Source: a bacterium (lineage in GTDB: Bacteria; Zhuqueibacterota; Zhuqueibacteria; Thermofontimicrobiales; Thermofontimicrobiaceae). From it: DNA of 34,102 bases. The stretch spans positions 1 to 34,102 of the forward strand of contig DSAU01000017.1 of assembly GCA_011046315.1 (NCBI GenBank), in the 5' to 3' direction. The translations under genes were made by a program, and so were the position numbers. Position 1 is the stretch's first letter; every line of letters starts with the position of its first letter. Shown piece by piece: positions 2,370 through 27,359 of the stretch. The notes under the pieces are model-generated. The model did no database searches, was not told where the DNA came from, and saw only the letters and a list, made by a program, of their open reading frames with translations.

Positions 2370-4399
2370 TTCGAGTTGCTCCGGTTGAGATAAATGAGTT
2401 TCTTTGTTTCTGATTGTTGTGCGCTTTCGATTTGATAGAAATACAAGCCTGAGGCGATCGCTTTACCCAACTGATCCCTGCCGTCCCATTCAAAACGGTT
2501 GGTCGATTCTTGTGAAGCTGATAGCGTCTCCCGAATCACGATTCGTCCCAATAGATCATAAATTTTTAGCTGGATGTTTTGGGGAATATCTGAATGAAAA
2601 GCTATGGTTGTGGTTTGAGCAAATGGATTGGGATAATTTTGAAAGAGCTGGATTTTTCTGGGAACCGCAGCGTCACCGGTTTGAACATTTGTTGAACCGG
2701 AAATATTTGCAAAATATCCTGAAACGAACACCAGTGGCGCATTCCAGTTGATAGCGATTTCATTGGAAGCATAACTATCGACATGATCGATGTAACATAA
2801 CGCCGGTGGGGTGGATGAATTAAAATGAGTCTTTAAAATTGGATCCTGCAGATATTGATTGGGTCCGCCTGCCAACAAACCCGGGACCGGCTCGGCAATG
2901 TTATCGGCAGCAGATGGACGATGATGCGGATTTCTGACGGATTTATCACCGATTCCGGTGATAAAGGAGAGACGATGCGCATTCACGCCTAAAAGATAAT
3001 GCAGTTGATCCAAAGCAGTGTTGTAAAAATCCGGATTTTTCGACTTTTCATAAGCGATAATCAAAAGGATCGCTTTATTTAAGGCGTATGAATTGCTACC
3101 CCAGAAATATTCGCCAGGTTCTAATAGTACATGAAATCCGCTTTGGTTTCTTTTGTTGACCAGAGTCTGGCAATAGTTGATTAGTGAGCCTTGTATTTGG
3201 GAGTGAACGGTCGGATTTATTGCTGAATGATTTCCAGTGAGATAAGTCAACAATGCCAGGGCTTTGACATTCTGCCAACCCATTGGGGAGTTAATAAGCC
3301 CTGAAGCGCGATAGTTGTCTTTGAAGTAATTATGATATTTATCATTTCCAGTAGTGACAAACAATTCAGCGGCAGCCCAGAGCCGCTCATCAAAATCCTG
3401 ACCATCACCGTATTCACCGGTGTTAGTTCCGGACGGATTTTGAAAGCCGCCTGATGGGATAATATTGGGATGAGCTTCCAGATACTGCCAGGCTTTTTCA
3501 GCCGCAGCCAGACACAGCTGCGAAAGCAGAGGATCGAATGATTGATAGATACGGGACGCTCTTGCCAGCATTGCCGCAAAATCGGCGGTAGCAGTCGAAG
3601 AAATTTGGTAGATATAGCGAACAGCCGTATCTCGCTGTGGCAAGATAAATCCGGCAAATTGTTCACGGGTCAATTTGTGATACACGCCGCCATTTTGATC
3701 CTGCATTTTCAGCAGCCATTCCAGTTCAAAACGAACTTCATCCAGAAGATCGGGCATACCATTTCCGCTCTCGGGGATGTTCAGATTATCTTGATTAAAA
3801 CGCTCTGGAAAAAGCTCATACGCCATCAACAAAGTGCCAACGGTTACACCGGCGTTAACAACATATTTGCCATAATCGCCGGCATCGTGCCAGCCCGCCA
3901 GGGCTTCATGAAAACCTGTCAAGCCGGTTGTTGAATGAAATATCCCATCAGTGGTGTGGCATTTGGTATGTGAATAAACGCCAGCATATTCTGTCGTCAG
4001 ATCCACGCCACAGCGTTGAAAATAAAAACCTTTTAAAGATTTATGATAGACATCCAGGTAAACCGAATCTGAAATCAAAAATTCAAACGATTTTCCCACG
4101 CCAGGAACATCAATAATATAATGCCCGCTTGTTGTTAAATCGCTAAAATCTCCCTTGTTAATCGTCAATCCCGTGGCAGGATCATTGGTTTGCCACCGGT
4201 TTAATTTTTCTCTGAAAACGATTTGATTTGATGAAGATTCGATAACTTTGAAACTGTCTGCAGGTTGTGCAACCAACACAAATTTTGCAGCATTGGGTAA
4301 ATATCCCTTTTGATCGATGAAGATTCTATCATCACTATTGATTTGACTGGATTGAAGTATGAAGAAGATGATGTAAAGCCAGAAAATATTGGTTCTCAT
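2366..4399 (-). CDS. GH9 endoglucanase with N-terminal Ig-like (CelD_N) domain and T9SS C-terminal sorting domain
   Basis: GH9 signatures: LAGWHDAGDYGKYVVNAG, RNPHHRPS, DSYASNEIAINWNAPLVF. The Ig-like N-domain reads IFIDQKGYLPNAAKF...DFSDLTTSGHYIIDVPGVGKSFEFLI. The C-terminal tail is LFQNYPNPFAQTTTIAF...LYFYQIES. I moved the start from the track's TTG (4453) to ATG 4399, giving the signal peptide MRTNIFWLYIIFFILQSSQINS. Confidence 0.9.
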   Translation of the reverse strand: MRTNIFWLYIIFFILQSSQINSDDRIFIDQKGYLPNAAKFVLVAQPADSFKVIESSSNQIVFREKLNRWQTNDPATGLTINKGDFSDLTTSGHYIIDVPGVGKSFEFLISDSVYLDVYHKSLKGFYFQRCGVDLTTEYAGVYSHTKCHTTDGIFHSTTGLTGFHEALAGWHDAGDYGKYVVNAGVTVGTLLMAYELFPERFNQDNLNIPESGNGMPDLLDEVRFELEWLLKMQDQNGGVYHKLTREQFAGFILPQRDTAVRYIYQISSTATADFAAMLARASRIYQSFDPLLSQLCLAAAEKAWQYLEAHPNIIPSGGFQNPSGTNTGEYGDGQDFDERLWAAAELFVTTGNDKYHNYFKDNYRASGLINSPMGWQNVKALALLTYLTGNHSAINPTVHSQIQGSLINYCQTLVNKRNQSGFHVLLEPGEYFWGSNSYALNKAILLIIAYEKSKNPDFYNTALDQLHYLLGVNAHRLSFITGIGDKSVRNPHHRPSAADNIAEPVPGLLAGGPNQYLQDPILKTHFNSSTPPALCYIDHVDSYASNEIAINWNAPLVFVSGYFANISGSTNVQTGDAAVPRKIQLFQNYPNPFAQTTTIAFHSDIPQNIQLKIYDLLGRIVIRETLSASQESTNRFEWDGRDQLGKAIASGLYFYQIESAQQSETKKLIYLNRSNSK

Positions 4400-4430
4400 T
4401 TTATTTATTACCTTTGCCCAATGTATTAAA

Positions 4431-4465
4431 GAACCCAACGGACAAAAAAACAATCAGTTGGGTTC
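4431..4465 (-). terminator. hairpin GAACCCAAC-N17-GTTGGGTTC between the PorV-like gene and GH9 (weak terminator/processing candidate)
   Basis: It has a 9-bp perfect stem and an A/T-rich 17-nt loop. On the minus strand only TTT follows it. It lies 32 nt upstream of the GH9 ATG. Confidence 0.3.
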
Positions 4466-4621: not shown

Positions 4622-5683
4622 TTAAAATAAAACCCCCACGGTATAACAATGCGATTTTCCCAGAATACCAATGCCGCGATACGCATAATCAATTTTAAGC
4701 CCGATATTGTTCATCATGCGAAGCACAATTCCGCCGCCAAAAGAAAATCCGTATTCCGATTTTTCCATAAACAGGGCTTTATATCCGGTCCGAAGGTAAA
4801 AGTCTCCAGTAGTCGGCAGATTGATTTTATATTGAGCTCCCACGTTGACCGATTCCATATTATTATTGGGATGCAGCGCATCTGCCGCGAGCGTCAGTCG
4901 ATGTTGTCCCATGATGAGTGGATTGATTGATACCCCGATTCGAAAAATCAAAGGCAACTCCCATGATTGCAAGCTGAACTTGCCGGCAACATCTCTAAAG
5001 TTACCCTGCTCATACGGTAAAATATCGATAGGCTGCAGCAAATCGATTCCATCATAAGTCATTTTTGTGCCGTAATTTGAGATGCTCATGCCGATGTTCA
5101 TGCCGTCCTCTCGTTTGCCGGTAAAGGAGAAGAAGTGGGTGTTCACAATTACTCCCAGATCCACGGCAAACGCGCTGGCGCTGCTGTGCCAAATTTTTGA
5201 TGAAATGTATTTGGTTGAAGCACCGAACGCAAACCAGTTCGCGAGCCGTCTGGCATAGGAAAGACTGACTGCAAAATCATTGGCGCTGAACATCTCTCCG
5301 GTTCCGTCCTGCATTGCCAAATTGGTCACTTCCATGTCATCGCCATAATCCACGAATATTAAACCTATGGAAAACGTTCCCAGCCTGGGAAAAACCAGCC
5401 CAACACTTGCAAATCCCGTGCTAATATCAGCAATCCAGGGTTGGTAAATGAACTGGGCTTCATGTTGTTCCATATACGACAAACCTGCCGGATTCCAATA
5501 AATGGAGGACAAATCACTTGCCACGCTGACATAGGCATCGCCCATGGCGTTTCCGGCGCTGCCAAAGCCGATTTCTAAAAAATTTGCAGCAGTTGTTCCC
5601 ACCCGATAAGGTTTTTGGGAGAAAGCAGAATTCAATGTACCCAGCACCAAAATGATTAATAGGAGAACTTTATATTTTTTCAT
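4622..5683 (-). CDS. PorV/PorQ-family (FadL-like) outer-membrane beta-barrel protein
   Basis: Signal peptide MKKYKVLLLIILVLGTLNSAFS. The N-terminal motif GTTAANFLEIGFGSAGNAMGDAYVSVASDLSSIYWNPAGLS is typical of the PorV/PorQ family. Amphipathic strands alternate throughout and the protein ends in an aromatic residue (..YTVGVLF). Confidence 0.75.
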   Translation of the reverse strand: MKKYKVLLLIILVLGTLNSAFSQKPYRVGTTAANFLEIGFGSAGNAMGDAYVSVASDLSSIYWNPAGLSYMEQHEAQFIYQPWIADISTGFASVGLVFPRLGTFSIGLIFVDYGDDMEVTNLAMQDGTGEMFSANDFAVSLSYARRLANWFAFGASTKYISSKIWHSSASAFAVDLGVIVNTHFFSFTGKREDGMNIGMSISNYGTKMTYDGIDLLQPIDILPYEQGNFRDVAGKFSLQSWELPLIFRIGVSINPLIMGQHRLTLAADALHPNNNMESVNVGAQYKINLPTTGDFYLRTGYKALFMEKSEYGFSFGGGIVLRMMNNIGLKIDYAYRGIGILGKSHCYTVGVLF

Positions 5684-5771
5684 GATCTGTACCCTTCATG
5701 AATGATAATGAATTTTTCAACCAAGAGTGAATTCCATTTATGCCCTTGCGATATATAAACGCATTGCGCTT

Positions 5772-8700
5772 TTATTTGATAACGGCAAATTTTCCGATTT
5801 TTTCAGCTCCTGTTTTTTTCGACTTAACATGATAGACATACATACCAGCGGCAATTTCCAGCCCTTCCTTGGAAGTCAAATCCCAATGGACAATTCCCTG
5901 ATCAGTCGGATTGGTTACTTCAATTTCATCGACCAGAACACCACTGACGGTGAAAATTTTAATCATACACTCGGCTGGAATATGGGTAAACATGAGCCGG
6001 CGACGCTGATTCAAAAGAAAGTTGGCAACAGCGGGTTCCATAGCGTTGGTGCCGACATACGGATTGGGAACGACTTTGATATCCTTCATCGTATCTTTTA
6101 ATTCAACAACGTCAAGCTGCTCCGAGGCTTCGATTCTAAATGTCAGCGAATCAGTGATCCAGAAAGGTCGCTTGAAAGTCACCCGATAAACATCGCCCGG
6201 CTTTGGCAGTTGGGTGCTGTCACTGGCTGAATTAAAATCAATAATAAAGGCAGTTCCTGCCCATTTATCATCTTTGGTAACTGGCCCAACCAGAATTCTG
6301 TCCTCTAAAATATCAAAGGTACCATTCCTTTTCTTATCATGGACTACCATATCCAACCGTTCATAAGAACCAGTGGAGTCTGTAAAAAGCTTATTTACGA
6401 CATAGAAACTAAATGGGATATTAATCAAAATATCGGTACGGTTTATTCGAACATCATTCTCATCACGCATTGTTTTGCTGGTCACCCTGCCCACATAAGC
6501 GGAATCATCCTCTGTGAATACAATGTCATATTCCCAGGGGAAAAACCGCGTTTCCTTTTTCGTTGGGGTAATATCTATGGGAGCATTGCCAACAACCCAA
6601 CCCGAATTGACCGGATCAAAAGAGGCGATCTCAACCGGGAAATCCATCATTAGGCGGATACCATCAAAAATGTCGGTATTGACGGTTTCATCGGTTTTAA
6701 AATAATGATAATTTTTCCAGTCAACAAACTCGGTTGTATCTTTATATCGCAAATTGTTGTAGGCATAATGTGACGGGGATTCTTCATAGACTAAAATATT
6801 ATTTAGATCAACATCATAGATTTGAACTCCATTGTTTGAGTAAACGATCCCGTGATCATAATTCGCGAGCGCATAGACAGTGTCGATAGAAAATTTAACT
6901 TTATAAGTATGGCCGGATTTTAGACTTTTCGCCGCCAGGATCTCGGGCGTTACTGAACCCACTCCGAATGTTTTCTCCTGGCTCTGGTCGATAGATGGAG
7001 GTATATATCCGGCAGCTTGTTGGTAAGGTGTTACGATTTGAACATTCTTGCTGCGTGCGCGAACTTCCTCCGATTCATCCAATTCGATGATGATATTATT
7101 CTCCGAAGGAGCAATGCCAGGCCCAATATCGGGCGCGCCATAGTCATAGGCAACGAGCGCGTAATAGTAGGTGCGACCATTTTGTACGTTATTATCAATA
7201 AAATAATGGGTAATTCCTGTGTCATAACCCAAATTATAACCGACGCCATTGATCAATCCAAAATTGGTGAAGCCAAATTTCCCGTTTTTCAGATCGCATT
7301 GAAAAATCGGTTTCTTCATAAACGGTGTACCGAAACCATCGGTGATGACTTCGGCATCCATCAGTTTTTTATCGGTGGCGCGGAAAAGTTTATATCCTTC
7401 AAAGTCATTGATATTGCCAAGGAAAGGATCCCTGGTTCTGGTATCGGCAACATCATCCCAGGTTAGGATCACCTTGCCGTCGGCTGGTGTTGCTGTTAAT
7501 GTCGGCATTTGTGGCGCCTGGGCAAAACGATAGTCTTTTTCGTAAATGACCTGCACGATGCGTTTCACCTCGAATAATGCCGGTGCAGAGTGTTCCGGTG
7601 AATTGAGTCCCTCGAGCGGATCATAGCTGTGAAGTTCAGCCATCGAGATTCGTTCGGTTCTACCCTGGTACAACGGGAACGGCCCGGAGGCAAAGGTCAT
7701 GACAAGATTCGAGATCCATTCGATTGACTCCATCAGTGTGTGCTGACCAATCAATTCCCACATTGACTTGTCGTTTCTGAACCATCGGTAATAGGGAGGG
7801 CGATGCGGCTGAATCGGGAACAGTTGAAACGACGTCAGCCCCACCATATCCGATTCGTCGACATCTGTCTCGGCAAAATTGGGTTCAGCCCGTCCCTCTT
7901 TTCGATCTGGTTTATGATTGCACTCCCCCTCATCAGGGCCGGGATAATTTAATTCTGTGGGTCCGATACCATCGAGCCCCACGTCATCTCCGGCGAATTC
8001 GTGGACCTGATAAATTCCATCGCCGTTAAGGTCCTCGCCGTCCTGCCAATCCTGATCTTCGTCGGCATCCCAGTGTTCTTTCAAGTCTTCTTCGTTCAGT
8101 CGATAAAAGTCGAGAAACTTTTGCAAGTCCGCAATACCGTCATAAGGACCAACTTTCATGACAGCATCGTTATCTCTTCTTTCATCGATAAGACCGTCTC
8201 CGTCATTGTCGATACCATCATAGCCAAGTCCGGGGCTTTCTAAGTAGGCAAATCCCATGGTTCCTGTAGGGAATCCACCCTGTCCGATTCCATCGATATC
8301 CCATGAGTAAGCCATATCGATACTGGTATCAAAGTATCCCAATTCATCATCATCGCCGGCGCCCGCAATGGCATCGCCGATGGCGTTATCCACCCAATAG
8401 CCAAAGGCGACATCTTTTAAATCATAGTCAGAGATGTTGGCAATGGTATATTCCCAAAACAGCGCATCTCTTGCCTGGGGATTATTCCATTGAAATCCGC
8501 GTTGTTCCACACGCACGCCAATGCCACCCCAGGGCAGACCGTTTTGAATCGTCGCCGGACGGATTTCGCCGATCTTTCTGCCCGGGCGCGGATAATATTT
8601 TACTCTATCTTCCGGGCCCAGGTATTCCTGATCATGGGCATCATTCGCCACAAAAAAGGTTTCCAGATCCGCGTACATGACGCCTTTGCCAAAGCGACCG

Positions 8701-9263
8701 TTCCATTCCGTGTTGCCGTCTTTATCAACAAAATCCGGGGCATCAGGCCAGCCGCCGATAGGCCAGGAAAAGGGATCGTTACTCATGGCTGGAGTTTCGC
8801 TGAGCTCATTAAAATAGCCAAATACCGGGTAAAACCCCCATTCCACAGTCCCTGTCGGGTCTCGATCCATTTCTTCCCGGTAGCTGGTCTGCAGATAATA
8901 GAGCGTATCCAATAGCCCCTGCGCACTCAGCAACTCAATTTCGTACGGATCCGTAACCGGAATGGTATCATTTTTTATATAAACCAGCGCCCCCACAAGC
9001 AATGCCACACCATCCAGCATTTTAACGCCGTCATAAGTATTTGGCCATTTGGACACATCCACCCGAGGCCAATCAGAGAGCTCGGTCGTGTTTTTAAAAT
9101 AGAGGAACACCCGATTACCTGTCATGTATCCCTCTCGAATGGCGGCGATATCGCCCGCGGGATCATCAGGTCCCTCGTATTTCTTCCCCTGTGCCTGTAG
9201 GCTCGACAGGATAATGAATTGAAGAACAACAATCGTAATGAAAAAAGTGAACATTTTTTTCAT
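5772..9263 (-). CDS. 1163-aa secreted protein of unknown function with acidic Ca-binding-type loops, an FN3-like module and a variant T9SS-type C-terminal domain
   Basis: Signal peptide MKKMFTFFITIVVLQFIILSSLQAQG, with GAGG SD upstream. It has an acidic segment with DxDxDG loops (GIDNDGDGLIDERRDND; EDLNGDGIYQ; DADEDQDWQDGED). The FN3-like stretch reads LTATPADGKVILTWDD...FEGYKLFRA...GRTYYYALVAYD. The C-terminal 101 aa read KVVPNPYVG-[TNAMEPAVANFLLNQRRR]-LMFTHIP..IKIFTVSGVLV...GMYVYHVKS..KFAVIK. I found no HExxH, and no His-then-Cys arrangement as in C25/PorU. Confidence 0.6.
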   Translation of the reverse strand: MKKMFTFFITIVVLQFIILSSLQAQGKKYEGPDDPAGDIAAIREGYMTGNRVFLYFKNTTELSDWPRVDVSKWPNTYDGVKMLDGVALLVGALVYIKNDTIPVTDPYEIELLSAQGLLDTLYYLQTSYREEMDRDPTGTVEWGFYPVFGYFNELSETPAMSNDPFSWPIGGWPDAPDFVDKDGNTEWNGRFGKGVMYADLETFFVANDAHDQEYLGPEDRVKYYPRPGRKIGEIRPATIQNGLPWGGIGVRVEQRGFQWNNPQARDALFWEYTIANISDYDLKDVAFGYWVDNAIGDAIAGAGDDDELGYFDTSIDMAYSWDIDGIGQGGFPTGTMGFAYLESPGLGYDGIDNDGDGLIDERRDNDAVMKVGPYDGIADLQKFLDFYRLNEEDLKEHWDADEDQDWQDGEDLNGDGIYQVHEFAGDDVGLDGIGPTELNYPGPDEGECNHKPDRKEGRAEPNFAETDVDESDMVGLTSFQLFPIQPHRPPYYRWFRNDKSMWELIGQHTLMESIEWISNLVMTFASGPFPLYQGRTERISMAELHSYDPLEGLNSPEHSAPALFEVKRIVQVIYEKDYRFAQAPQMPTLTATPADGKVILTWDDVADTRTRDPFLGNINDFEGYKLFRATDKKLMDAEVITDGFGTPFMKKPIFQCDLKNGKFGFTNFGLINGVGYNLGYDTGITHYFIDNNVQNGRTYYYALVAYDYGAPDIGPGIAPSENNIIIELDESEEVRARSKNVQIVTPYQQAAGYIPPSIDQSQEKTFGVGSVTPEILAAKSLKSGHTYKVKFSIDTVYALANYDHGIVYSNNGVQIYDVDLNNILVYEESPSHYAYNNLRYKDTTEFVDWKNYHYFKTDETVNTDIFDGIRLMMDFPVEIASFDPVNSGWVVGNAPIDITPTKKETRFFPWEYDIVFTEDDSAYVGRVTSKTMRDENDVRINRTDILINIPFSFYVVNKLFTDSTGSYERLDMVVHDKKRNGTFDILEDRILVGPVTKDDKWAGTAFIIDFNSASDSTQLPKPGDVYRVTFKRPFWITDSLTFRIEASEQLDVVELKDTMKDIKVVPNPYVGTNAMEPAVANFLLNQRRRLMFTHIPAECMIKIFTVSGVLVDEIEVTNPTDQGIVHWDLTSKEGLEIAAGMYVYHVKSKKTGAEKIGKFAVIK

Positions 9264-9376
9264 ATTAAAACCTCGTCTAAAATAAGCGATTTTTTTTCAG
9301 CCTTTACGGCTCTGGTAAACAGCTATGTAATTTTCCTCTTGGTTGTAAGTTAAAAGGATATTTTGCATGTCGTCAA

Positions 9377-12115
9377 TTAAAAAACAATTCCCAATCCCAA
9401 TTTGACCATTCTTGGCGCTGAATACATCGACGGATTCTGGATTCGATCAATGTACTGATTAAAATTGCTGCGATGGCTGGCTAAATCCGTCGGTCGCATT
9501 ATGGCAGTATAAGCCCGGCCTGTCTGAGCATTGACCCATTCTTCATTCAGTCGATCGAGCAAATTATAAACTGTTAGTGTCAATCGCAATTTTAAATCTT
9601 TCAAAACCGTGAAATTATAATAACTGTTCATATCCACGTTATAGCGAGCGGGTCGCCAGGCATTATTGGGATAGAGGTTAACCCGTGCCAGGATACTTTC
9701 ACTGACCGGCTGCCAGGTGTATGGCGATCCCGAATTGTAATATCCTGTTAGAGTGGTTCCGTATTTGGCGGTATTATAACCAACAGTGACATTCAATGTA
9801 TGTCTCTGGTCCCAGCTCATTGGAATCAGGCGGTTAATGGGATCTAGGTTATTGCCAGCCCGATCAAAAGTCTGGGTGGGATTGTCGGCGTTGCCCCGGG
9901 TATATTGGAGCGTGTAATTGAGAAAGGCAGTGTAATTCTTGTACGCAAAGTCATATTTTAGCTCAAGGCCCTTTACATTGCCATAGTCTTTGTTGCTGTA
10001 AAGTCCATATTTTATCTGGTTAAAGGTGCTCACCACTTTGGCGCTGAGCAGATCGTAGATGTCGCGGTAAAAGACGACCACCTCGATGCCCATTCCTTTC
10101 ATGATTTCCTGCCACAGTCCGATTTCATACTGAACTGTCTTTTGCGCTTTTATTTGTGGATCACCCATGGTTGTTTCATAGCTGGTTGGCGCCACCTGTT
10201 TGGAATGATTCTGGTACATGGCGTACATTGGCGGCATCTGAAAAAAGTGTCCATAGCTGAAATGAAGCAATGCAGTCTTTCTCAATTGATAGGCAAGACC
10301 GAGACGAGGACTGATCTGGTATTTTGGATCCGCCCACATTTTTTTTGACATCTGTTCAGGATTATCGGGAAAACTCAATTGGTTAGCTGGATTTCGACGT
10401 TGTGATGGATAGTAAGTTTTGGGGTGAAAATAATCATATCGAACCCCAAAATTGATGACCATTTCATCGAACTCCATTTTATCTTGTAGATAACCAGAGT
10501 ATTCGATAGGCTTGACATTATAGATATCAGAATAGACTGAAAAATCAGGATAGATCACTGGCTCATAATTTGGAAAAACGAGCTTCATACGCTCAAAATC
10601 AAAATACGACTCTCCCTCGGCCTCGGTGCCTGAGTATTTATTCCTGATCTCTGACCATGCTCGTTTCAGATTGTGATAGGTGTATTCGAATCCTGCTTTG
10701 AGCGAATGATTTTTATTTATCTGCCAGGTGAGATCAAACTTAACATTTCGGTCAATCATGGTATGTTTGCTGTTGACTTTTTCCTGTCCCCCGGTATAAA
10801 ATGCTGGGCCTTCGATATTATGATAAGCATCATGAATATAGCGGGGATCAAGTGGATTTTCGTAAACATACCAGCCGTTGTAATTATCAAGATAAGATAG
10901 TTTTAGCTCATAAAACAACCTGGGCGATAACATGTGGTTAAAGCCAACCATATAAATATCGGTCTGACGATGAGATGCTGGCTTACCATCAGGATTGTAT
11001 TTGTATGCGTGCTCATAGTCATTCCAAATATCTTTGTTATGGTTGTAAAAAAGGGACATTCTAAAATTCGCCTTCGGTTTGAAGGTTAGTTTGCCCATGA
11101 AAGAGACATTTTCATCCCTGTCCAGGGATACATAAGCATTATCGCCATTATGCTCGGAATACCATTGCGTGGAATCATCGTGTAAAAAATAACTATAGTC
11201 ATCAACTTTGAAACGGCGGATTCCATTGAGATGGTTCTTATTATCCTGGTAGCGAAAATTGGTGAAAAAAGTGATGAGATCACCCCATACCGGGCCACTA
11301 AGCTGAAATTTGTAGTCCTGGTTGCGATTCAATTCGCTATCCTTTAACCCGATAAAAATATCTTTATGAGGTGTAAAATAATTGGCTGAATTGACTGAAA
11401 TGGAACCGCTAAACCTTTTCCCCCCATCTTTGGTTACCGCATTGACAATGCCACTCATAGCATTACCATACTCTGCATTGAATGTTCCGGTGATGACTTC
11501 CAGATCCTGAATCGATTCGGGCTCCAAATCAACAGTTCGTCCCTGGCCACCAAACGCTTCGGTAACTTCAATGCCATCGATCAGATAGGCGACTTCGGTG
11601 TTCCTGCCACCACGAAAATGGCCGTTTACAATTCCAGCTTGCAGATTTACAACGGCTGAAACGCTTTCCACCGGTAACATATTGATCTGATCGGAAGATA
11701 CGTTTCGTATCGAGGAAGTTTGATCTTTTTTAATGGTAATTTTCTCTGCTTCGACAACAACTTCCTGTCCTTCCAGCACGGTGGGTTTTAATTTTACGTC
11801 AATATAACTGGTACGATTAACAGAGACATGCAAGTTTTCCATTCGGAGCGCTTCATAGCCAATCATGGTGATTTGAAGCACATATTGACCGGGCGGAATA
11901 TTGATGATGAAAAAATCACCTTCCATACCTGATGCAGCGCCTAAGGTGGTACCTTCGATGACTACATTCGCTCCTGGCAGCGGATCTTTCGTTTCTGCAT
12001 CCGTTATTTTTCCGGCAATTTTGCCAGTCGTTTGCGCATAGACGAAAAGGGGGGTGAATAATAACGATAAAACGAACGGGAAAAACACGATAATTCTAAA
12101 TCTGGTTGTGTTCAT
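9377..12115 (-). CDS. TonB-dependent receptor with N-terminal carboxypeptidase-regulatory-like domain (not obviously SusC-type; no SusD partner)
   Basis: Signal peptide MNTTRFRIIVFFPFVLSLLFTPLFVYA. The CarboxypepD_reg-like domain reads GKIAGKITDAETKDPLPGANVVIEGT..GDFFIINIPPGQYVLQI. A TonB-box-like QEVVVEAEK is followed by a plug (SSIRNVSSDQINMLPVESVSAVVNLQAGIV..AYLIDGIEV). A long barrel ends in ..VKLGLGIVF. I moved the start from TTG 12163 to ATG 12115, which is preceded by AGAGGG 9 nt upstream. Confidence 0.85.
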   Translation of the reverse strand: MNTTRFRIIVFFPFVLSLLFTPLFVYAQTTGKIAGKITDAETKDPLPGANVVIEGTTLGAASGMEGDFFIINIPPGQYVLQITMIGYEALRMENLHVSVNRTSYIDVKLKPTVLEGQEVVVEAEKITIKKDQTSSIRNVSSDQINMLPVESVSAVVNLQAGIVNGHFRGGRNTEVAYLIDGIEVTEAFGGQGRTVDLEPESIQDLEVITGTFNAEYGNAMSGIVNAVTKDGGKRFSGSISVNSANYFTPHKDIFIGLKDSELNRNQDYKFQLSGPVWGDLITFFTNFRYQDNKNHLNGIRRFKVDDYSYFLHDDSTQWYSEHNGDNAYVSLDRDENVSFMGKLTFKPKANFRMSLFYNHNKDIWNDYEHAYKYNPDGKPASHRQTDIYMVGFNHMLSPRLFYELKLSYLDNYNGWYVYENPLDPRYIHDAYHNIEGPAFYTGGQEKVNSKHTMIDRNVKFDLTWQINKNHSLKAGFEYTYHNLKRAWSEIRNKYSGTEAEGESYFDFERMKLVFPNYEPVIYPDFSVYSDIYNVKPIEYSGYLQDKMEFDEMVINFGVRYDYFHPKTYYPSQRRNPANQLSFPDNPEQMSKKMWADPKYQISPRLGLAYQLRKTALLHFSYGHFFQMPPMYAMYQNHSKQVAPTSYETTMGDPQIKAQKTVQYEIGLWQEIMKGMGIEVVVFYRDIYDLLSAKVVSTFNQIKYGLYSNKDYGNVKGLELKYDFAYKNYTAFLNYTLQYTRGNADNPTQTFDRAGNNLDPINRLIPMSWDQRHTLNVTVGYNTAKYGTTLTGYYNSGSPYTWQPVSESILARVNLYPNNAWRPARYNVDMNSYYNFTVLKDLKLRLTLTVYNLLDRLNEEWVNAQTGRAYTAIMRPTDLASHRSNFNQYIDRIQNPSMYSAPRMVKLGLGIVF

Positions 12116-12156
12116 AATTATAATCCCTCTGGACATAATTTTGAAAATAGAACTGC

Positions 12157-12179
12157 AGGACAAGTTAATAACTTGTCCT
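12157..12179. promoter_or_regulatory. 23-bp perfect palindrome AGGACAAGTTA-A-TAACTTGTCCT, 42 nt upstream of the TonB-dependent receptor ATG
   Basis: It has 11-bp perfect arms around a single central base. The plus strand has a T7 run 8 nt after it, and the minus strand is T-rich after it (gcagttctatttt). It could be an operator or a bidirectional terminator-like hairpin. Confidence 0.4.
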
Positions 12180-12202
12180 ACAGTCCGTTTTTTTGATGCA
12201 GG

Positions 12203-12438: not shown

Positions 12439-14940
12439 TTATTTCATAAAAATCGCCTTCATCGTTCTGGTAAAATCACCAGCTTGGATACGGTAGAAAT
12501 AGATTCCTGATGAGAGTTCTTTAGCATCAAAATGAATCGTATGGCTGCCTTCTTGCTGAAATTCATTGACCAAAGTTTTCATCCGTTGTCCCAGCATATT
12601 GAACAGCTCTATTTTTACCATTCCTGCTTTGGCCAACGTATATTGGATCGTGGTCGACGGATTAAACGGATTGGGATAATTCTGGAAAAGCTCATAAGAA
12701 CCCACCGTCGTAAATTTTTTGCTTTTTTCAACTGAGGTTACATGGGTTGTATCACCAATCCAGGTATAAGCCCATTCAGCAGGATTCTGCCATTGATGAT
12801 CGGTGCTGATTTGTGAGAAACCGAGGTTCCCTTCCCATCCAGCGCCATCATTATCATGTAAATATAGATCTAATGGTATCCGCATACCACGCTCGCGATA
12901 AAATCTAATATCAGTGCCGGCTACCAGAGAATCCAGCGGAATTTTAGCTTCAATTAAATAATCGGAACCGCCCAACGGTTCGAAATGATAATTCTCATGC
13001 TCTGGCGTATAAAGAACACCACCACCAGCGACATCATGCTGGATTCTATCCTCAACAAAGTAAATGATGTGGTCTGGTTCCGATCCCCTTTTTATAGCTG
13101 TATGCTTGGGTCCCCGCTGATCATAAAAACCGATAAAAATCTGGAAAGCATCTTGATCCCACCAATTTCCTTCGCCATAGTGGTAGACATCATCAACGAC
13201 ATCAGCGGCAACATACAGATAATCCTCGTCAATAGCCAGGTAAACGGTGGCTTTAAGGTCGAGACTGTCATTTACAACCCCAACCGGCACATGATCGGTT
13301 TCAGGTTTGAGCACAAAAGGTCTGATACCGCTGGCTTCCCATTCACTCAAGTCACCGTCCACTGCAAAATTTGCTGGTGCATTTAAGGCGATGGTGGGTA
13401 TTCCTTTTGCCGCGTTGGAAACCGCGCCCGATGTTCCTATTGGTCCAACATTTCCTGCCGCATCTTTACAGTTGACGGCATAGTAATATTCCACGTTCTG
13501 ATCTTTCAACGGATAATAGATAAAGTGGGCAACAGCTTGCTCTCCTTCCATGATACCCGTTGCTACGGTTTCTATGTCGGGTGAATCAAGTGTAGTAATA
13601 GGCTTTTCACTGGCATAGATATTATAGACTTCTCCTGCTTCGCCGGGCACATCTTCCCAGATCACCAGGTTATAATATTGACCGGCCACTCCCTGAACAT
13701 TAGTCGGCGCAAGCGGCGCTACAACATCAATCTCCGGATCACCTGTCCACCAATCTGTTATGTAGACAACTTTTCCGGCAACACCAGATCCTTCTGCCAT
13801 CATTCCAATAACGACAACGTTGGCGGGATTAAAGTCCGAGGTGCCATCCTGGTACGGCAATTCACTCAATTTAAAAACATAATCATGCCATTGGTTATCA
13901 GTCGTTGGCGTAAAAGCCTGACCAACTTTAGCAGTACCGTCTTCAAGCTGTACCCTTAAAACTCCAACGCCCTCTTCAGCCTTTAACTTGAATTTGAGTG
14001 TATCAGTTTCCCATTCAAATTCCATATTGTACGGCGGATCAATGGTAAATCCCATCCCGGTCCAACCGTTCCCCCATTCGTCTCCCTGAACCCATTTTAA
14101 GGCATTGGTTCCTTCAATTACACCAGCGCCTTCTTCAACTTCGATGGTCGATTGTCCCCATGCCCATGAGCTGAAGTTGTTGGGGAGCGCTCTTCCGTTG
14201 AAGAAGATGAAATCACGATGCTTTCTACCGACCAGGGTCAAATTGTCGATAATGACGGTTCCGGTAGCATGATCGCCTTGTCCGCCACCGCTGATTGAAA
14301 ATTCAAAAGAAAAACCTTTGATCTTATCGGGATCGAGTTTGACATTACCGCTAATTCCTGCCCAACCCGTCAAGTTGAAAGCCTCGCCGTTCCATGCATT
14401 GGGGTCTTCTATTAATGGTAGTTGAACTTTGTTCCAGCCCGGCTCAGCATCTAAAATATAGTGAAATGAATAGTAATACTCTGATTGAAGGACACTGTAA
14501 GTTTTAGCGCCATCGGGTGAGTCGCTCACATCATGGAGATTGAATCGCAAATGGACTCTGCCAGCGAGCGATTGCGGAACCGAATTATAATACCAAAACG
14601 CAACCGAATCATAAGCTGACCAGTCATAAACTGCGTTTGAATCGGGATGCCAGTGCTCCAGCTTGGTGTATCCGCCCCAGCCTTCAATGTTGTGAGCGCT
14701 ATATTCCAGTTTCATCGCGCCAGTTCCTTCATAAACCGGATCAGTGATATAATCAATTAAAATCCAACCCTTGGCAGAATCAGCATTGTCACTGGTCTGG
14801 TAATGTTGGCCGCCATGATTAGTAAAATAGGACCAATAGTTGGTATCTGCCGGGGCAGAATCAAAATTGTTAATCATCTGTCCCAAAGCGATCGATGTGA
14901 TCGCCACTAAAAAAACGAATGATAGAAACAATCTTTTCAT
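12439..14940 (-). CDS. non-catalytic secreted carbohydrate-binding protein (two CBM11/CIA30-like modules, FN3-like, CBM9-like) with canonical T9SS C-terminal domain
   Basis: Signal peptide MKRLFLSFVFLVAITSIALG, with AAGGAG SD upstream. The N-terminal beta-sandwich-type modules begin NNFDSAPADTNYW..GWGGYTKLEH. The FN3-like stretch reads APTNVQGVAGQYYNLVIWEDVPGE..YYYAVNCKD. The CBM9-like block reads VDGDLSEWEASGIRPFVL...LYVAADVVDD..WWDQDAFQIFIG...DLYLHDNDG. The tail is LFQNYPNPFNPSTTIQYTL..GIYFYRIQAG. No glycosidase catalytic motif was recognised. Confidence 0.65.
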   Translation of the reverse strand: MKRLFLSFVFLVAITSIALGQMINNFDSAPADTNYWSYFTNHGGQHYQTSDNADSAKGWILIDYITDPVYEGTGAMKLEYSAHNIEGWGGYTKLEHWHPDSNAVYDWSAYDSVAFWYYNSVPQSLAGRVHLRFNLHDVSDSPDGAKTYSVLQSEYYYSFHYILDAEPGWNKVQLPLIEDPNAWNGEAFNLTGWAGISGNVKLDPDKIKGFSFEFSISGGGQGDHATGTVIIDNLTLVGRKHRDFIFFNGRALPNNFSSWAWGQSTIEVEEGAGVIEGTNALKWVQGDEWGNGWTGMGFTIDPPYNMEFEWETDTLKFKLKAEEGVGVLRVQLEDGTAKVGQAFTPTTDNQWHDYVFKLSELPYQDGTSDFNPANVVVIGMMAEGSGVAGKVVYITDWWTGDPEIDVVAPLAPTNVQGVAGQYYNLVIWEDVPGEAGEVYNIYASEKPITTLDSPDIETVATGIMEGEQAVAHFIYYPLKDQNVEYYYAVNCKDAAGNVGPIGTSGAVSNAAKGIPTIALNAPANFAVDGDLSEWEASGIRPFVLKPETDHVPVGVVNDSLDLKATVYLAIDEDYLYVAADVVDDVYHYGEGNWWDQDAFQIFIGFYDQRGPKHTAIKRGSEPDHIIYFVEDRIQHDVAGGGVLYTPEHENYHFEPLGGSDYLIEAKIPLDSLVAGTDIRFYRERGMRIPLDLYLHDNDGAGWEGNLGFSQISTDHQWQNPAEWAYTWIGDTTHVTSVEKSKKFTTVGSYELFQNYPNPFNPSTTIQYTLAKAGMVKIELFNMLGQRMKTLVNEFQQEGSHTIHFDAKELSSGIYFYRIQAGDFTRTMKAIFMK

Positions 14941-16833: not shown

Positions 16834-16866
16834 ATCCCTCCCTCAAAATTTTAATGTTTTTAAAAT

Positions 16867-16882
16867 GGCAATTATTATACCA
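16867..16882 (-). promoter_or_regulatory. promoter upstream of the symporter gene that reads both as sigma-54 -24/-12 (TGGTAT-N5-TTGCC) and as extended -10 (TGgTATAAT)
   Basis: Minus strand reads cgTGGTATAATAATTGCCattttaaaaacattaaaattttGAGGGAGGgatATG. GG and GC have the canonical 10-nt separation, and the GC lies about 35 nt upstream of ATG 16833. Confidence 0.5.
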
Positions 16883-16956
16883 CGTTATTTAGAACTTTTC
16901 ACCTATTATTTTTTTTAGACTTATGTTTATTTGAAATCGCAATTGGAGCAATTCAC

Positions 16957-16972
16957 TTATTATTTTAATAAT
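16957..16972. repeat. 16-mer TTATTATTTTAATAAT (copy 1), shared with the GH5 upstream region
   Basis: It is identical to 23857..23872 and contains the inverted repeat ATTATT-TT-AATAAT. It lies 74 nt upstream of the TGG of the promoter at 16882. Confidence 0.6.
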
Positions 16973-17084
16973 TGGCTATTATCAAAAAGATAACGCAAAA
17001 GTTTATTAGCGATAATCATCACAAGCCAATTGCTAATCGCCCGGTATCCAAATGACTTAATCACCCGGCTACCCAATTACTGAA

Positions 17085-19346: not shown

Positions 19347-19392
19347 GATTCGCTCCTTAAATTATTCTCGGTACTGTAAAAGACGCCCAGTT

Positions 19393-19433
19393 AAATGCCT
19401 TTATGCATTTCAGTGAATCGCATCAAGGCGATT
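19393..19433. other. two tandem 6-bp/6-nt-loop hairpins between the two GH3 genes
   Basis: AAATGC-CTTTAT-GCATTT (19393..19410) and AATCGC-ATCAAG-GCGATT (19416..19433). Neither is followed by a U-tract. Confidence 0.3.
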
Positions 19434-19446
19434 TACTGGCAGATAT

Positions 19447-21639: not shown

Positions 21640-21683
21640 CGCATGTCTCCAATATGTTTTATCAAATCAAACCGGCTTATAAT

Positions 21684-23699: not shown

Positions 23700-23743
23700 T
23701 GTTTGTTTTCCATTGTTTATCACTTATCAATTCTGAAATATCT

Positions 23744-25414: not shown

Positions 25415-25560
25415 AATACACCTATTTTATTGCCTTTAAAATAACGTGCTTCTGAATAATATGAAAACTGTAAATTTCAAATGAACCAATAGAAAATAAT
25501 AAATTTTTAAAACCAAAAATTTTAAATTCTTACTCCGATTAGTTAGCTTTAGAGTTTGGA

Positions 25561-27048: not shown

Positions 27049-27134
27049 TTTGCCAGACCCTTATTGGTACTAAATTAAGCCGTTCGTATTGAAAGAAGTT
27101 TTTCTTTGACAACTTTAATTACAAAATTGTTGCA

Positions 27135-27163
27135 AACATATTTTTCTTGCAGAACTTGTGCAA
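27135..27163 (-). promoter_or_regulatory. candidate sigma-70 promoter for the kinase/regulator genes (TTGCAC-17 nt-TATGTT)
   Basis: Minus strand reads tTTGCACaagttctgcaagaaaaaTATGTTtgc, about 90 nt upstream of ATG 27048. This is a motif match only. Confidence 0.25.
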
Positions 27164-27202
27164 ATAAAATTATTTGATTATACAGATGTTTCAGCTACCC
27201 CC

Positions 27203-27285
27203 GTCATTGCGAGGCATTTTTTAGCCGAAGCAATCTTTTTTAAAGTCAGGAGATTTCCACGCTCCCTGCGGTCGCTCGCAGTGAC
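27203..27285. repeat. two inverted copies of the GTCAYTGCGAG...AATCTC palindromic repeat family
   Basis: Copy A is at 27203..27236: GTCATTGCGAGGCATTTTTTAGCCGAAGCAATCT. Copy B is at 27250..27285, which in reverse complement reads GTCACTGCGAGCGACCGCAGGGAGCGTGGAAATCTC. The pair is flanked by 8-bp direct repeats TTATACAG (27178..27185 and 27294..27301). Confidence 0.6.
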
Positions 27286-27359
27286 GATGTGGTTTATACA
27301 GCAAAAGTGAATAGCTGAGTTGTTTGCATAATCAGTGAAAATTGTGAGCACTATAAATT

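What the first reader, a model, noticed from the sequence alone, without database searches (positions are those of the whole stretch)
4622..12115. TonB-dependent receptor + 1163-aa variant-CTD protein + PorV/PorQ-family barrel: possible SusD-independent, T9SS-anchored glycan capture module
Three consecutive co-directional genes sit in the middle of a glucanase cluster: the receptor (9377-12115), a 113-bp gap, the giant protein (5772-9263), an 88-bp gap, and the barrel (4622-5683). No SusD/RagB-like gene occurs anywhere in the window.

Established knowledge: Bacteroidetes PULs pair a SusC receptor with a lipoprotein SusD. In the Porphyromonas T9SS attachment complex, the PorV and PorQ barrels hold the CTD-bearing proteins PorU and PorZ at the cell surface.

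Seen in sequence: the giant protein has a signal peptide, Ca-binding-type acidic loops, an FN3-like module and a T9SS-like tail. I found no catalytic motif (no HExxH, and only 3 Cys with no C25-like His-then-Cys order, so it is unlikely to be PorU).

Inference: the adjacent barrel is a dedicated anchor that tethers the giant protein next to the receptor, replacing lipid-anchored SusD/E/F-type partners. I know of no characterised example of such a trio.
Basis: partly seen in the sequence, partly recalled or inferred. Interest (0 to 1): 0.75.

Follow-up and report, generated by a model that had tools for sequence, protein, structure and literature searches.

The report
Receptor, giant surface protein, anchor barrel
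In a beta-glucan-degrading gene cluster, an outer-membrane import receptor is always encoded next to an uncharacterised 1,160-residue secreted protein and its own PorV-like barrel, and this trio recurs across many bacterial phyla that lack the classic SusC/SusD sugar-capture pair, so it may be their alternative version of it.

Summary
Three co-directional genes sit at the stated coordinates. They encode a TonB-dependent receptor, a 1163-aa protein with no Pfam hit, and a PorV/PorQ-family barrel. They lie inside a GH9/GH5/GH3/symporter beta-glucan cluster with no SusD gene.

- **The tail.** The giant's tail is a variant T9SS type-A CTD (hhalign 97%, E 1e-10) with a conserved 13-residue insertion.
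- **The fold.** A confident AF2 model is all-beta. It has a beta-supersandwich N-domain with an acidic DxDxDG-type loop insert, an FN3-like domain, a fast-evolving beta region and the CTD. No catalytic domain was found.
- **The family.** It is large (3248 clusters at 50% identity) and named only "hypothetical".
- **Synteny.** Receptor, giant and barrel are adjacent in 58 of 64 evaluable loci. These come from KSB1, Calditrichia, Marinimicrobia, Ignavibacteria, Rhodothermales, Kryptoniota and others.
- **Paralogs.** One genome can hold several trios, each beside different CAZymes. The three proteins co-diverge (r 0.84-0.94).
- **The barrel.** It is not housekeeping PorV or PorQ.
- **Extra partners.** A CBM9-like CTD protein upstream and a SurA-like protein downstream are frequent.

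Physical tethering and glycan binding remain inferred. Ten literature searches found no description of the trio. I rate it a new variant of known kinds (PUL-like receptor system plus cognate-barrel T9SS anchoring).

The parts
12439..14940 (-). 833-aa protein with a CBM9-like domain and a canonical T9SS type-A CTD. It is a frequent fourth member, immediately upstream of the receptor.
   Evidence: CBM9_1 at 46.5 bits and Por_Secre_tail at 40.9 bits; TIGR04183 at 45.4 bits. Orthologs sit in the same position in L001, L002 and L004. Of 76 nearest neighbours of trios, 26 have CBM9_1 and 42 have Por_Secre_tail.
12150..12186 (-). 17-pair hairpin followed by TATTTTC, between the CBM9-CTD gene and the receptor. 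It is terminator-like or attenuator-like.
   Evidence: the sequence is shown.
9377..12115 (-). TonB-dependent receptor, 912 aa from ATG 12115. It has a signal peptide, a CarboxypepD_reg-like N-terminal domain, a TonB-box-like EVVVEAE, a plug, a 22-strand-type barrel and a C-terminal Phe.
   Evidence: PF13715 at 69.1, PF07715 at 36.2 and PF00593 at 105.7 bits. SusC/RagA TIGR04056 scores only 84.9 against a 368.25 cut-off.
5772..9263 (-). Giant protein of 1163 aa with a Sec signal peptide and no lipobox. It is all-beta and belongs to an uncharacterised family.
   Evidence: No Pfam family and no PDB sequence hit. The family has 3248 clusters at 50% identity with E <= 1e-3. The AF2 model has pLDDT 87.9 and pTM 0.79.
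7509..9188 (-). N-terminal domain of the giant (residues 26-585). It is a beta-supersandwich-like fold.
   Evidence: AF2 pLDDT 91.3 and pTM 0.91. The best Foldseek PDB matches are the N-terminal supersandwich domains of dextran dextrinase 9ju0 (E 1e-5, TMq 0.31), GH116, GH94 and GH149.
7836..8231 (-). Acidic loop-rich insertion (residues 345-476) with DxDxDG-type motifs. It is a putative Ca2+-binding region and one of the parts best conserved between paralogs.
   Evidence: 49% D/E/N/G, with motifs at 352 and 411. Many invariant D/E/G columns. 43% identity is retained in the paralog clade.
7029..7508 (-). FN3-like beta-sandwich domain (residues 586-745).
   Evidence: Strand pattern of the AF2 model. 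High conservation. NCBI names orthologs 'fibronectin type III domain-containing protein'.
6114..7016 (-). Fast-evolving beta-sandwich region (residues 750-1050). It is a candidate specificity module.
   Evidence: It has the lowest information content. Identity is 52% in orthologs against about 76% elsewhere, and 15% in paralogs. In longer relatives this part carries Reg_prop beta-propeller repeats.
5775..6077 (-). Variant T9SS type-A C-terminal domain (residues 1063-1163) with a family-specific 13-residue insertion after the PNPY motif.
   Evidence: Alignment with the window's three canonical CTDs. hhalign of family tails against canonical CTDs gives probability 97% and E 1e-10. It is strongly conserved across paralogs. 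pLDDT dips to 60-69 in the insertion.
4622..5683 (-). PorV/PorQ-family outer-membrane barrel of 353 aa with a signal peptide and a C-terminal Phe. It is trio-specific and is not housekeeping PorV or PorQ.
   Evidence: NF033709 at 217.8 bits (cut-off 90), PorQ at 96.1 (cut-off 220), PorV at 95.6 (cut-off 250). The closest solved structure is F. johnsoniae PorV 6h3i_F at E 1.8e-12.
2366..4453 (-). GH9 endoglucanase with a CelD_N Ig-like domain and a T9SS CTD.
852..2369 (-). 505-aa SurA_N/PpiD-like helical protein, possibly a lipoprotein. It overlaps the GH9 gene by 4 nt. It is a frequent fifth member of the beta-glucan-type loci.
   Evidence: SurA_N_3 at 22.7 bits, below the cut-off. Orthologs lie downstream of the barrel in L001, L002, L004, L012, L014, L019 and L024. 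Rotamase domains are present in counterparts.
15205..23723 (-). The rest of the glucan-use cluster: an SSF sodium:solute symporter (15205-16833), two GH3 beta-glucosidases (17085-19346 and 19447-21639), and a GH5 + CBM6/35 + CTD endoglucanase (21684-23723).
23957..28679 (-). Putative regulators: a sigma-54-dependent response regulator, a histidine kinase and an SBP_bac_1 solute-binding protein.

Best explanation
The window carries a beta-glucan utilisation cluster of a non-Bacteroidia member of the FCB group. The closest relatives are labelled KSB1.

**Proposed pathway.**
1. T9SS-secreted GH9 and GH5 endoglucanases cut the polymer outside the cell.
2. Oligosaccharides cross the outer membrane through the TonB-dependent receptor.
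3. Periplasmic GH3 enzymes trim them.
4. The SSF symporter takes up the sugar.

**Proposed role of the giant and the barrel.**
- The receptor has no lipoprotein SusD partner. Instead it is encoded with a 1163-aa non-catalytic, all-beta surface protein.
- That protein is exported by Sec and then by the T9SS through a variant type-A CTD.
- The CTD is most likely kept and held by the cognate PorV-family barrel encoded immediately downstream. PorQ holds PorZ and PorV holds PorU in the same way.
- The barrel would thereby place the giant beside or over the receptor.
- The conserved parts (acidic Ca-type loops, FN3-like domain, CTD) would serve assembly.
- The supersandwich body and the fast-evolving C-proximal region would capture the glycan and pass it to the receptor.
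- The upstream CBM9-like CTD protein would be an additional surface glycan binder.

**Shown here.**
- Gene content and family assignments.
- The CTD-like nature of the tail.
- The fold, and the absence of a recognisable catalytic domain.
- Synteny, multiple paralogous trios, co-divergence, and association with CAZyme genes.

**Inferred.**
- T9SS export and retention of the CTD.
- Binding of the giant to the barrel.
- Contact of the giant with the receptor.
- Glycan binding.
For: - **Cluster content**.
- **Tail.** It is a variant type-A CTD. Its only family-model hits are the retained CTDs of PorU and PorZ, and PorZ and PorU are the top Foldseek entries.
- **Barrel.** It is a PorV/PorQ-family member but not PorV or PorQ.
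- **Synteny.** The receptor is immediately upstream in 64/69 cases, the barrel immediately downstream in 72/78, and both in 58/64. Median gaps are 14 and 13 nt. This holds across Calditrichia, Marinimicrobia, KSB1, Ignavibacteria, Rhodothermales, Kryptoniota, Krumholzibacteriia and Eisenbacteria.
- **Paralogous trios in one contig or MAG, next to different CAZymes.** Examples are GH125/ROK/MFS, GH94/GHL10/GH38 and GH16/GH3/GH5.
- **Neighbour scans.** They are rich in CTD proteins, CBM9, GH3, GH16, GH9 and sugar transporters, with no SusD among the families listed.
- **Co-divergence.** The three proteins co-diverge (r 0.84-0.94). Orthologs are about equally conserved, at 61%, 65% and 62% identity.
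- **Fold.** It is all-beta with no catalytic domain. The supersandwich fold is otherwise known from accessory domains of glycoside hydrolases and phosphorylases.
- **Variable region.** It is swapped for Reg_prop propellers in longer relatives, and conservation is region-specific.
- **Published principle.** Cognate PorV-like barrels retain uncleaved CTD proteins (PMC10202324). A FadL/PorV-like barrel, BamG, holds a surface protein beside BamA (PMC12578637).
Against: - No interaction was predicted or measured.
- No ligand-binding site was identified.
- Foldseek TM-scores for the N-domain are only about 0.3, so the supersandwich assignment is partial.
- The giant fails the curated Por_Secre_tail and TIGR04183 thresholds. 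Only profile-profile comparison shows the CTD.
- Many invariant acidic and aromatic residues could equally mark an active site.
- T9SS core genes of this organism are not in the window.
- A few loci break the pattern: three tandem giants with one barrel in L015, and a reordered L039.
Confidence: 0.5

Rival explanations
1. The giant is a surface enzyme of a new family, for example a Ca2+-dependent glycan lyase or hydrolase, or an oligosaccharide-processing enzyme. It is tethered by the barrel next to the receptor. On this reading the trio is a 'cut-and-import' unit rather than a 'bind-and-import' unit.
For: - There are many invariant D, E, W, Y and R residues across paralogs.
- There is an acidic Ca-type loop region.
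- The supersandwich fold occurs in CAZymes of GH94, GH116, GH149 and PL26.
- Conservation is very high: 65% identity between phyla.
Against: - In the matched CAZymes the supersandwich is the accessory domain, not the catalytic (alpha/alpha)6 domain. The giant has no such domain and is all-beta.
- It hits no CAZyme, Pfam, NCBIfam or PDB sequence model.
- The invariant residues are shared by trios that sit next to unrelated CAZyme sets. That fits a common structural role better than one catalytic specificity.
Confidence: 0.17
2. The barrel is a dedicated T9SS shuttle or export adaptor for the giant, a private PorV, and not a permanent anchor. After export the CTD is removed. The giant is then released or attached to lipopolysaccharide like ordinary type-A cargo, and it need not touch the receptor.
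For: - PorV itself is a shuttle (Glew 2017, cited in PMC12578637).
- The tail is of type A.
- The canonical CTD proteins of the cluster have no private barrel.
Against: - The CTD is among the most conserved parts of the family, with an invariant insertion. That is unusual for a domain that is discarded.
- The only family-model similarity is to the two CTDs known to be retained.
- This reading does not explain the strict adjacency to a receptor, with gaps of about 14 nt, or the three-way co-divergence.
Confidence: 0.15
3. The giant plus the barrel is a locus-specific T9SS attachment or sorting sub-complex, PorZ/PorU-like in role. It docks or processes the cluster's CTD-bearing enzymes (GH9, GH5, CBM9 protein) and holds them around the receptor.
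For: - The top Foldseek entries are PorZ and PorU.
- CTD proteins are strongly enriched next to trios: 42 of 76 nearest neighbours.
- Some long relatives carry Reg_prop propeller repeats. By my recollection PorZ is also built from beta-propellers; this was not checked here.
Against: - TM-scores are <= 0.08, so only Ig/CTD-level resemblance is seen.
- There is no C25-like domain. The protein has only 3 Cys, and none is among the invariant columns.
- PorU and PorZ model scores are 19.8 and 20 against cut-offs of 420 and 260.
Confidence: 0.08
4. The trio is a general outer-membrane uptake or envelope module unrelated to glycans, and its place among glucanase genes is incidental.
For: - Some loci have few recognisable CAZymes close by, such as L009.
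- The family is very large.
Against: - CAZyme, CBM and sugar-transporter genes dominate the neighbourhoods in all phyla sampled.
- Orthologous trios keep the same beta-glucan gene set across phyla.
Confidence: 0.05

Closest known systems
SusC/SusD (RagA/RagB) pairs of Bacteroidota polysaccharide utilisation loci, and the 'utilisome' complexes built around them
   Same: - A TonB-dependent receptor with a CarboxypepD_reg-like N-terminal domain is encoded directly beside a surface partner, inside CAZyme clusters.
- There are multiple paralogous sets per genome, each with a different enzyme set.
- Additional surface glycan binders are encoded alongside (here the CBM9-CTD protein).
   Different: - The partner is not a roughly 550-aa helical TPR lipoprotein. 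It is a roughly 1100-aa all-beta protein without a lipobox and with a T9SS CTD.
- A third gene, a PorV-family barrel, is always present.
- The receptor fails the SusC/RagA model (84.9 against 368.25 bits).
- The lineages are KSB1, Calditrichia, Marinimicrobia, Ignavibacteria, Rhodothermales and others.
PorQ-PorZ and PorV-PorU pairs of the Porphyromonas T9SS attachment complex
   Same: - A PorV/PorQ-family barrel is paired with a large T9SS protein whose CTD resembles the retained PorU and PorZ CTDs.
- The published idea is that a cognate barrel protects the CTD from cleavage and anchors the protein (PMC10202324).
   Different: - The giant has no C25 peptidase domain and no PorZ-type architecture.
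- The barrel fails the PorV and PorQ equivalog models.
- The pair is multi-copy, is encoded with a TonB-dependent receptor, and sits in nutrient-use clusters rather than forming part of the secretion machinery.
Type-B CTD proteins with cognate PorP/SprF barrels (for example SprB-SprF)
   Same: - The genes for a secreted surface protein and its private PorV-like barrel are adjacent.
- The barrel is proposed to anchor the protein at the surface.
   Different: - The CTD here is a variant of type A, not type B. CHU_C scores only 14.8 bits on the tail.
- The barrel is of the PorV/PorQ family, not PorP/SprF.
- A receptor is part of the unit.
BamG-BamH in the Bacteroidota BAM complex
   Same: A 14-strand FadL/PorV-like barrel sits against a large barrel (BamA) and holds an extracellular protein by its loops (PMC12578637). 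This is a structural precedent for 'small barrel tethers a surface protein next to a big barrel'.
   Different: - The machine is different (OMP assembly).
- The trio barrels score far below the BamG model (about 30 against 250 bits).
- BamH is not a CTD protein of this family.

Membership tests
TonB-dependent receptor (Pfam PF00593/PF07715) | Plug domain plus TonB-dependent barrel above the gathering scores | tested here: met
   Plug scores 36.2 against 23.9. The barrel scores 105.7 against 27.
SusC/RagA subfamily (TIGR04056) | Score at or above the curated cut-off of 368.25 | tested here: not met
   It scores 84.9 bits, and only residues 48-501 match.
SusC/RagA subfamily (TIGR04056) | CarboxypepD_reg-like N-terminal extension before the plug | tested here: met
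   PF13715 at 69.1 bits on residues 49-137 (numbering of the 928-aa ORF read from TTG 12163).
Canonical PUL (SusC/SusD-defined, as in PULDB) | An adjacent SusD/RagB-family gene | tested here: not met
   There is no SusD/RagB hit in any main ORF of the window. None appears in the gene tables of L001-L009 or among the top families of 168 neighbouring genes.
PorV/PorQ family (NF033709) | Score at or above 90 bits over the full model | tested here: met
   It scores 217.8 bits on model positions 1-324 of 326. Ten barrels from distant trios score 177-248 bits.
PorV proper (NF033710) or PorQ proper (NF033711) | Equivalog cut-offs of 250 and 220 bits | tested here: not met
   It scores 95.6 and 96.1 bits. 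All 10 other trio barrels are also below these cut-offs.
T9SS type-A CTD (PF18962 / TIGR04183) | Curated model score on the C-terminal 70-100 residues | tested here: not met
   Neither model hits the giant, even at E <= 10 on the isolated tail.
T9SS type-A CTD (PF18962 / TIGR04183) | Homology of the tail to canonical CTDs, including the PNPF-like, G..V and G.Y.Y motifs | tested here: met
   hhalign gives probability 97% and E 1e-10 over 68 columns, with a 13-residue insertion. The motifs are visible.
T9SS cargo | Actual secretion by a T9SS, and the presence of T9SS core genes in the genome | not testable with these tools
   Only the 34-kb contig is available. Three other proteins in the window carry canonical CTDs, which implies a T9SS.
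PorU sortase (NF033707) / peptidase C25 | C25-like catalytic domain and a model score of at least 420 | tested here: not met
   It scores 19.8 bits, on tail residues 1040-1159 only. There are 3 Cys and none is invariant.
PorZ (NF052228) | Model score of at least 260 | tested here: not met
   It scores 20 bits, on the tail only. The Foldseek hit to 5m11 has TM 0.08.
Glycoside hydrolase/phosphorylase families with an N-terminal supersandwich (GH94, GH116, GH149, GH15-like) | Catalytic (alpha/alpha)6 domain | tested here: not met
   The model is almost entirely beta. Matches cover only the accessory N-domain, with TMq about 0.3.

The most novel reading that the evidence does not exclude
The receptor, the giant and the PorV-family barrel form a three-protein outer-membrane glycan import complex. 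It is the SusD-independent counterpart of SusCD in the non-Bacteroidia FCB lineages: KSB1, Calditrichota, Marinimicrobia, Ignavibacteria, Rhodothermales, Kryptoniota, Eisenbacteria and others. The partner protein is delivered by the T9SS and held by a private barrel through a retained variant CTD, instead of being lipid-anchored. On this reading it is a second, ancient and widespread architecture for polysaccharide utilisation loci. It could be used to predict glycan use in uncultured phyla, as SusC/D pairs are used in Bacteroidota.
Probability: 0.45. Interest if true: 0.85.

Novelty: new variant of a known kind. Interest (0 to 1): 0.72.

Why it matters
**Why it matters.** Prediction of polysaccharide utilisation loci relies on SusC/SusD pairs, which are essentially a Bacteroidota feature. 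Abundant sediment, marine and subsurface lineages degrade glycans but lack that marker. Examples are KSB1, Calditrichota, Marinimicrobia and Ignavibacteria.

**What the trio would add if it is their functional equivalent.**
- A simple genomic signature for glycan-uptake loci in those phyla.
- A function for a family of more than 3000 'hypothetical' protein clusters.
- A new use of the T9SS 'cognate barrel' anchoring principle, outside the secretion machinery itself.
- A testable case of how a TonB-dependent importer recruits a surface partner without lipoprotein surface export.

**Testability.** Cultured carriers exist, so it can be tested directly. One is Caldithrix abyssi, with ortholog Calab_3088. 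Related loci were also found in MAGs assigned to Ignavibacterium album.

Tried and rejected
- **Giant against sequence libraries.** Pfam at E <= 10 gave only a noise hit (Lamprin). NCBIfam gave only tail hits. The PDB sequence search gave nothing.
- **Whole-protein Foldseek.** Only multi-Ig/FN3 and CTD-level matches appeared, with TM <= 0.16. I therefore modelled and searched the N-domain separately.
- **Sigma-54 promoter consensus.** There were 22 matches against 16.9 expected, and none sat convincingly upstream of the operon. I did not pursue it.
- **Sigma-70-like site.** The site at 12145-12117 ends 2 nt before the ATG, so I did not count it as evidence.
- **Look-up of the Caldithrix abyssi ortholog.** The exact-sequence look-up for P0094 found no record.
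- **The Caldithrix genome paper** (PMC5317091) does not mention the module.
- **Third homolog search.** It started from a Rhodothermales member and did not list a named Rhodothermus marinus protein among the best 120. The resemblance to Rmar_1070-1072 (PMC6987092) therefore remains an unverified lead.
- **Housekeeping PorV or PorQ** was considered and rejected.
- **PorU-like sortase** was considered and rejected.
- **Not attempted.** Residue-level coevolution between the giant and the barrel was not tried, because only 61 complete trios were available.

Full report

Yes. The window is one complete 34,102-bp MAG contig. The giant's exact match is NCBI ENN22_00575, named 'bacterium'. Almost all genes lie on the minus strand.

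The three ORFs are at 4622-5683, 5772-9263 and 9377-12163. The receptor's most plausible start is ATG 12115. It gives MNTTRF... with a signal peptide and 912 aa, matching orthologs of 894-914 aa. The intergenic gaps are 113 and 88 nt, as stated.

Family searches give these results:
- **Receptor:** CarbopepD_reg_2 + Plug + TonB-dependent barrel. It scores far below the SusC/RagA cut-off (84.9 against 368.25 bits).
- **Barrel:** a PorV/PorQ-family protein (NF033709, 217.8 bits, cut-off 90). It scores below the PorV (95.6/250) and PorQ (96.1/220) equivalog cut-offs.
- **Giant:** no Pfam family at all. Its only hits are weak ones on its last ~70-120 residues to the C-terminal ends of the PorU and PorZ models (E about 1e-4).

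The surroundings are:
- a CBM9-like + CTD protein,
- GH9 + CTD,
- GH5 + CBM6/35 + CTD,
- two GH3 enzymes,
- an SSF symporter,
- a sigma-54 response regulator, a histidine kinase and a solute-binding protein.

No SusD/RagB hit occurs in the window.

**2. What is the giant protein?**

*The tail.* It aligns with the three canonical CTDs of the window at the PNP(F/Y), G..V and G.Y.Y..K motifs, but it has an extra segment. I compared 148 family tails with 62 canonical CTDs by profile-profile alignment. The result was 97% probability and E 1e-10, with a 13-residue family-specific insertion. The tail is therefore a variant type-A T9SS CTD that escapes the curated models.

*The fold.* I built an alignment of two clades (64-86% and 32-40% identity). 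It gave a confident AF2 model with pLDDT 87.9 and pTM 0.79. The protein is essentially all-beta.
- Modelled alone, the N-terminal 560 residues reach pLDDT 91.3 and pTM 0.91.
- They resemble the N-terminal beta-supersandwich accessory domains of dextran dextrinase, GH116, GH94 and GH149 enzymes. The best hit has E 1e-5 and TMq about 0.3.
- The (alpha/alpha)6 catalytic domain of those enzymes is absent.
- The whole-protein search put PorZ and PorU first, but with TM <= 0.08. That reflects only Ig/CTD-level similarity.

*Conservation.* It is uneven along the protein.
- Between paralog clades, the acidic loop insert (345-476), the FN3-like domain (586-745) and the CTD keep 42-43% identity.
- The supersandwich body keeps 27%.
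- Residues 750-1050 keep 15%. This region is also the least conserved among orthologs (52% against about 76%).
- In longer relatives, Reg_prop beta-propeller repeats occupy the C-proximal region.

This pattern suggests constant assembly parts plus exchangeable recognition parts.

**3. How general is the arrangement?**

The family is large. It has 3248 clusters at 50% identity with E <= 1e-3, and 411 with E <= 1e-30. Every source name is 'hypothetical' or a generic domain label.

*Close orthologs.* They have 64-86% identity and come from KSB1, Calditrichota and Marinimicrobia. They sit in the same five-gene core: CBM9-CTD protein, receptor, giant, barrel, and a roughly 505-aa SurA/rotamase-like protein. 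GH16, GH3 and GH5 genes lie around them.

*Distant paralogs.* They have 33-40% identity and keep the order receptor, giant, barrel, but beside other gene sets:
- MFS/ROK/GH125 (two tandem trios on one contig),
- GH94/GHL10/GH38,
- a CBM9-like CTD protein with a rotamase.

*Genome scan.* A scan of one genome per species returned 80 loci. They come from Calditrichia, Marinimicrobia, KSB1, Ignavibacteria/Melioribacteraceae, Rhodothermales/Balneola, Kryptoniota, Krumholzibacteriia, Eisenbacteria and unclassified 'Bacteroidota' MAGs. My own ORF calling and phmmer labelling gave these counts:

| Arrangement | Count |
|---|---|
| Receptor immediately upstream of the giant | 64 of 69 |
| Barrel immediately downstream of the giant | 72 of 78 |
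| Both | 58 of 64 |

Median gaps are 14 and 13 nt. The exceptions are frameshifted genes, an inserted CTD gene, or tandem giants.

*Neighbouring genes.*
- Of the 76 nearest neighbours, 42 carry Por_Secre_tail and 26 carry CBM9_1.
- Of 92 downstream neighbours, many are GH3, GH16, GH9, glucoamylase-like, sugar-binding proteins or rotamases.

*Co-divergence.* Across 61 complete trios the three proteins co-diverge, with distance-matrix r between 0.84 and 0.94. Orthologs are about equally conserved, at 61%, 65% and 62% identity. One Calditrichaceae MAG holds two trios that are only 32-36% identical to each other in all three proteins. One of them is 59-67% identical to the window's trio. Ten barrels from distant trios all pass only the broad PorV/PorQ family model. 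The barrel is therefore a private, co-evolving partner and not the housekeeping PorV.

**4. How it most likely works.**

*Shown:* the cluster has the logic of a 'selfish' glycan-uptake system.
1. T9SS-secreted endoglucanases act outside the cell.
2. An outer-membrane TonB-dependent importer takes up the products.
3. Periplasmic GH3 enzymes trim them.
4. An inner-membrane symporter imports the sugar.

*Inferred:*
- The giant is exported by Sec and the T9SS.
- Its strongly conserved variant CTD is not discarded. It stays bound to the cognate barrel.
- This places a large non-catalytic beta protein at the receptor, where it captures glycan and hands it over.

*Published precedents:*
- PorU and PorZ keep their CTDs and stay on PorV and PorQ (PMC10202324).
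- Type-B CTD proteins are encoded next to and anchored by PorP/SprF barrels (PMC10202324).
- The FadL-like BamG holds the surface protein BamH against BamA (PMC12578637).

I put about 0.5 on the full chain. The PUL-like role of the cluster is near certain. Barrel-giant pairing is likely. Glycan binding and receptor contact are plausible but untested.

*Rivals:*
- a new surface enzyme (0.17),
- a private export shuttle with CTD cleavage (0.15),
- a locus-specific attachment complex for the neighbouring CTD enzymes (0.08),
- a module unrelated to glycans (0.05).

**5. Comparison with what is known, and novelty.**

Functionally the nearest system is SusC/SusD. By membership it is not one:
- the receptor fails the SusC model,
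- no SusD is present,
- the partner is an unrelated fold with a different anchoring mode,
- a third gene is obligatory.

The barrel-CTD pairing follows the PorQ-PorZ and SprF-SprB principle, but here it lies outside the secretion machinery and is multi-copy.

Ten full-text searches found no description of this trio. A paper on Rhodothermus marinus tabulates, without comment, a xylan locus that looks like the same layout: Xyn10A-CTD, a TonB-dependent receptor (Rmar_1070), a hypothetical protein with a CTD (Rmar_1071) and another hypothetical protein (Rmar_1072) (PMC6987092). I could not verify this by sequence.

I rate the finding a new variant of known kinds. It is of clear interest to people working on PULs, the T9SS and glycan cycling in uncultured phyla. 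Subscription-only literature was not searchable, so an existing description cannot be excluded.

**6. Verdict.**

Every testable refutation criterion was passed, and the physical mechanism is untested.
- Interest is 0.72.

Noticed in passing
window 12150-12186 (minus strand), with a second stem around 12207-12235: A 17-pair hairpin followed by a T-rich run lies in the 323-nt gap between the CBM9-CTD gene and the receptor. A second, shorter inverted repeat (GTGCGGTG...CACCGCAC) lies just upstream. They could be a terminator or attenuator separating two transcription units.
   Followed up: partly
window 852-2369 (minus strand): A 505-aa helical protein gives a sub-threshold SurA_N_3 hit and has a possible lipoprotein signal (LLICTC). 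It overlaps the GH9 gene by 4 nt. Counterparts, some with rotamase domains, follow the barrel in many beta-glucan-type loci. It may be a periplasmic chaperone dedicated to the module.
   Followed up: partly
window 23957-28679 (minus strand): A sigma-54-dependent response regulator, a histidine kinase (only HATPase_c recognised) and an SBP_bac_1 solute-binding protein lie upstream of the glucanase genes. This may be an oligosaccharide-sensing circuit. No convincing sigma-54 promoter consensus was found in the window.
   Followed up: partly
L015:3-10772 and L039:622-9678: These are atypical layouts. In a KSB1 MAG (L015), three giants lie in tandem, followed by a single PorV-like barrel, and no receptor was detected in the stretch fetched. 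In L039 the order is giant, giant, receptor, barrel.
   Followed up: no
P0179, P0189, P0194, P0236 (family members of 1476-1592 aa): Longer relatives of the giant carry Reg_prop (two-component regulator propeller) repeats in the C-proximal region. This suggests modular exchange of a recognition domain.
   Followed up: partly
Rhodothermus marinus Rmar_1069-1073 (PMC6987092, Table 1): The published xylan locus lists Xyn10A-CTD, a TonB-dependent receptor, a hypothetical protein with a Por CTD and further hypotheticals, next to a separate SusC/SusD pair. It may be the same trio in a cultured organism. This was not verified by sequence.
   Followed up: partly
window 7001-9000: GC content rises to 0.488 here, against about 0.42 around it. 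The stretch covers the N-terminal half of the giant gene, including its Asp/Gly-rich acidic loop region. Codon content may be the cause rather than foreign origin; this was not tested.
   Followed up: no
window 28765-33846 (minus strand): An unrelated block holds a CCG/4Fe-4S oxidoreductase, the ETF alpha and beta subunits, and a TetR-family regulator (YsiA-like). It looks like a fatty-acid or acyl-CoA oxidation electron-transfer set.
   Followed up: no
Barrels of L006, L007, L009, L027, L032, L055, L072, L081, L084: The NCBIfam model NF033709 ('PorV/PorQ family protein', 326 positions) matches the trio barrels nearly or fully end to end (at least positions 1-324 or 4-326). The PorV and PorQ equivalog models mostly match only about the first 160-220 residues. 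Trio-type barrels may make up much of what that broad model describes.
   Followed up: no
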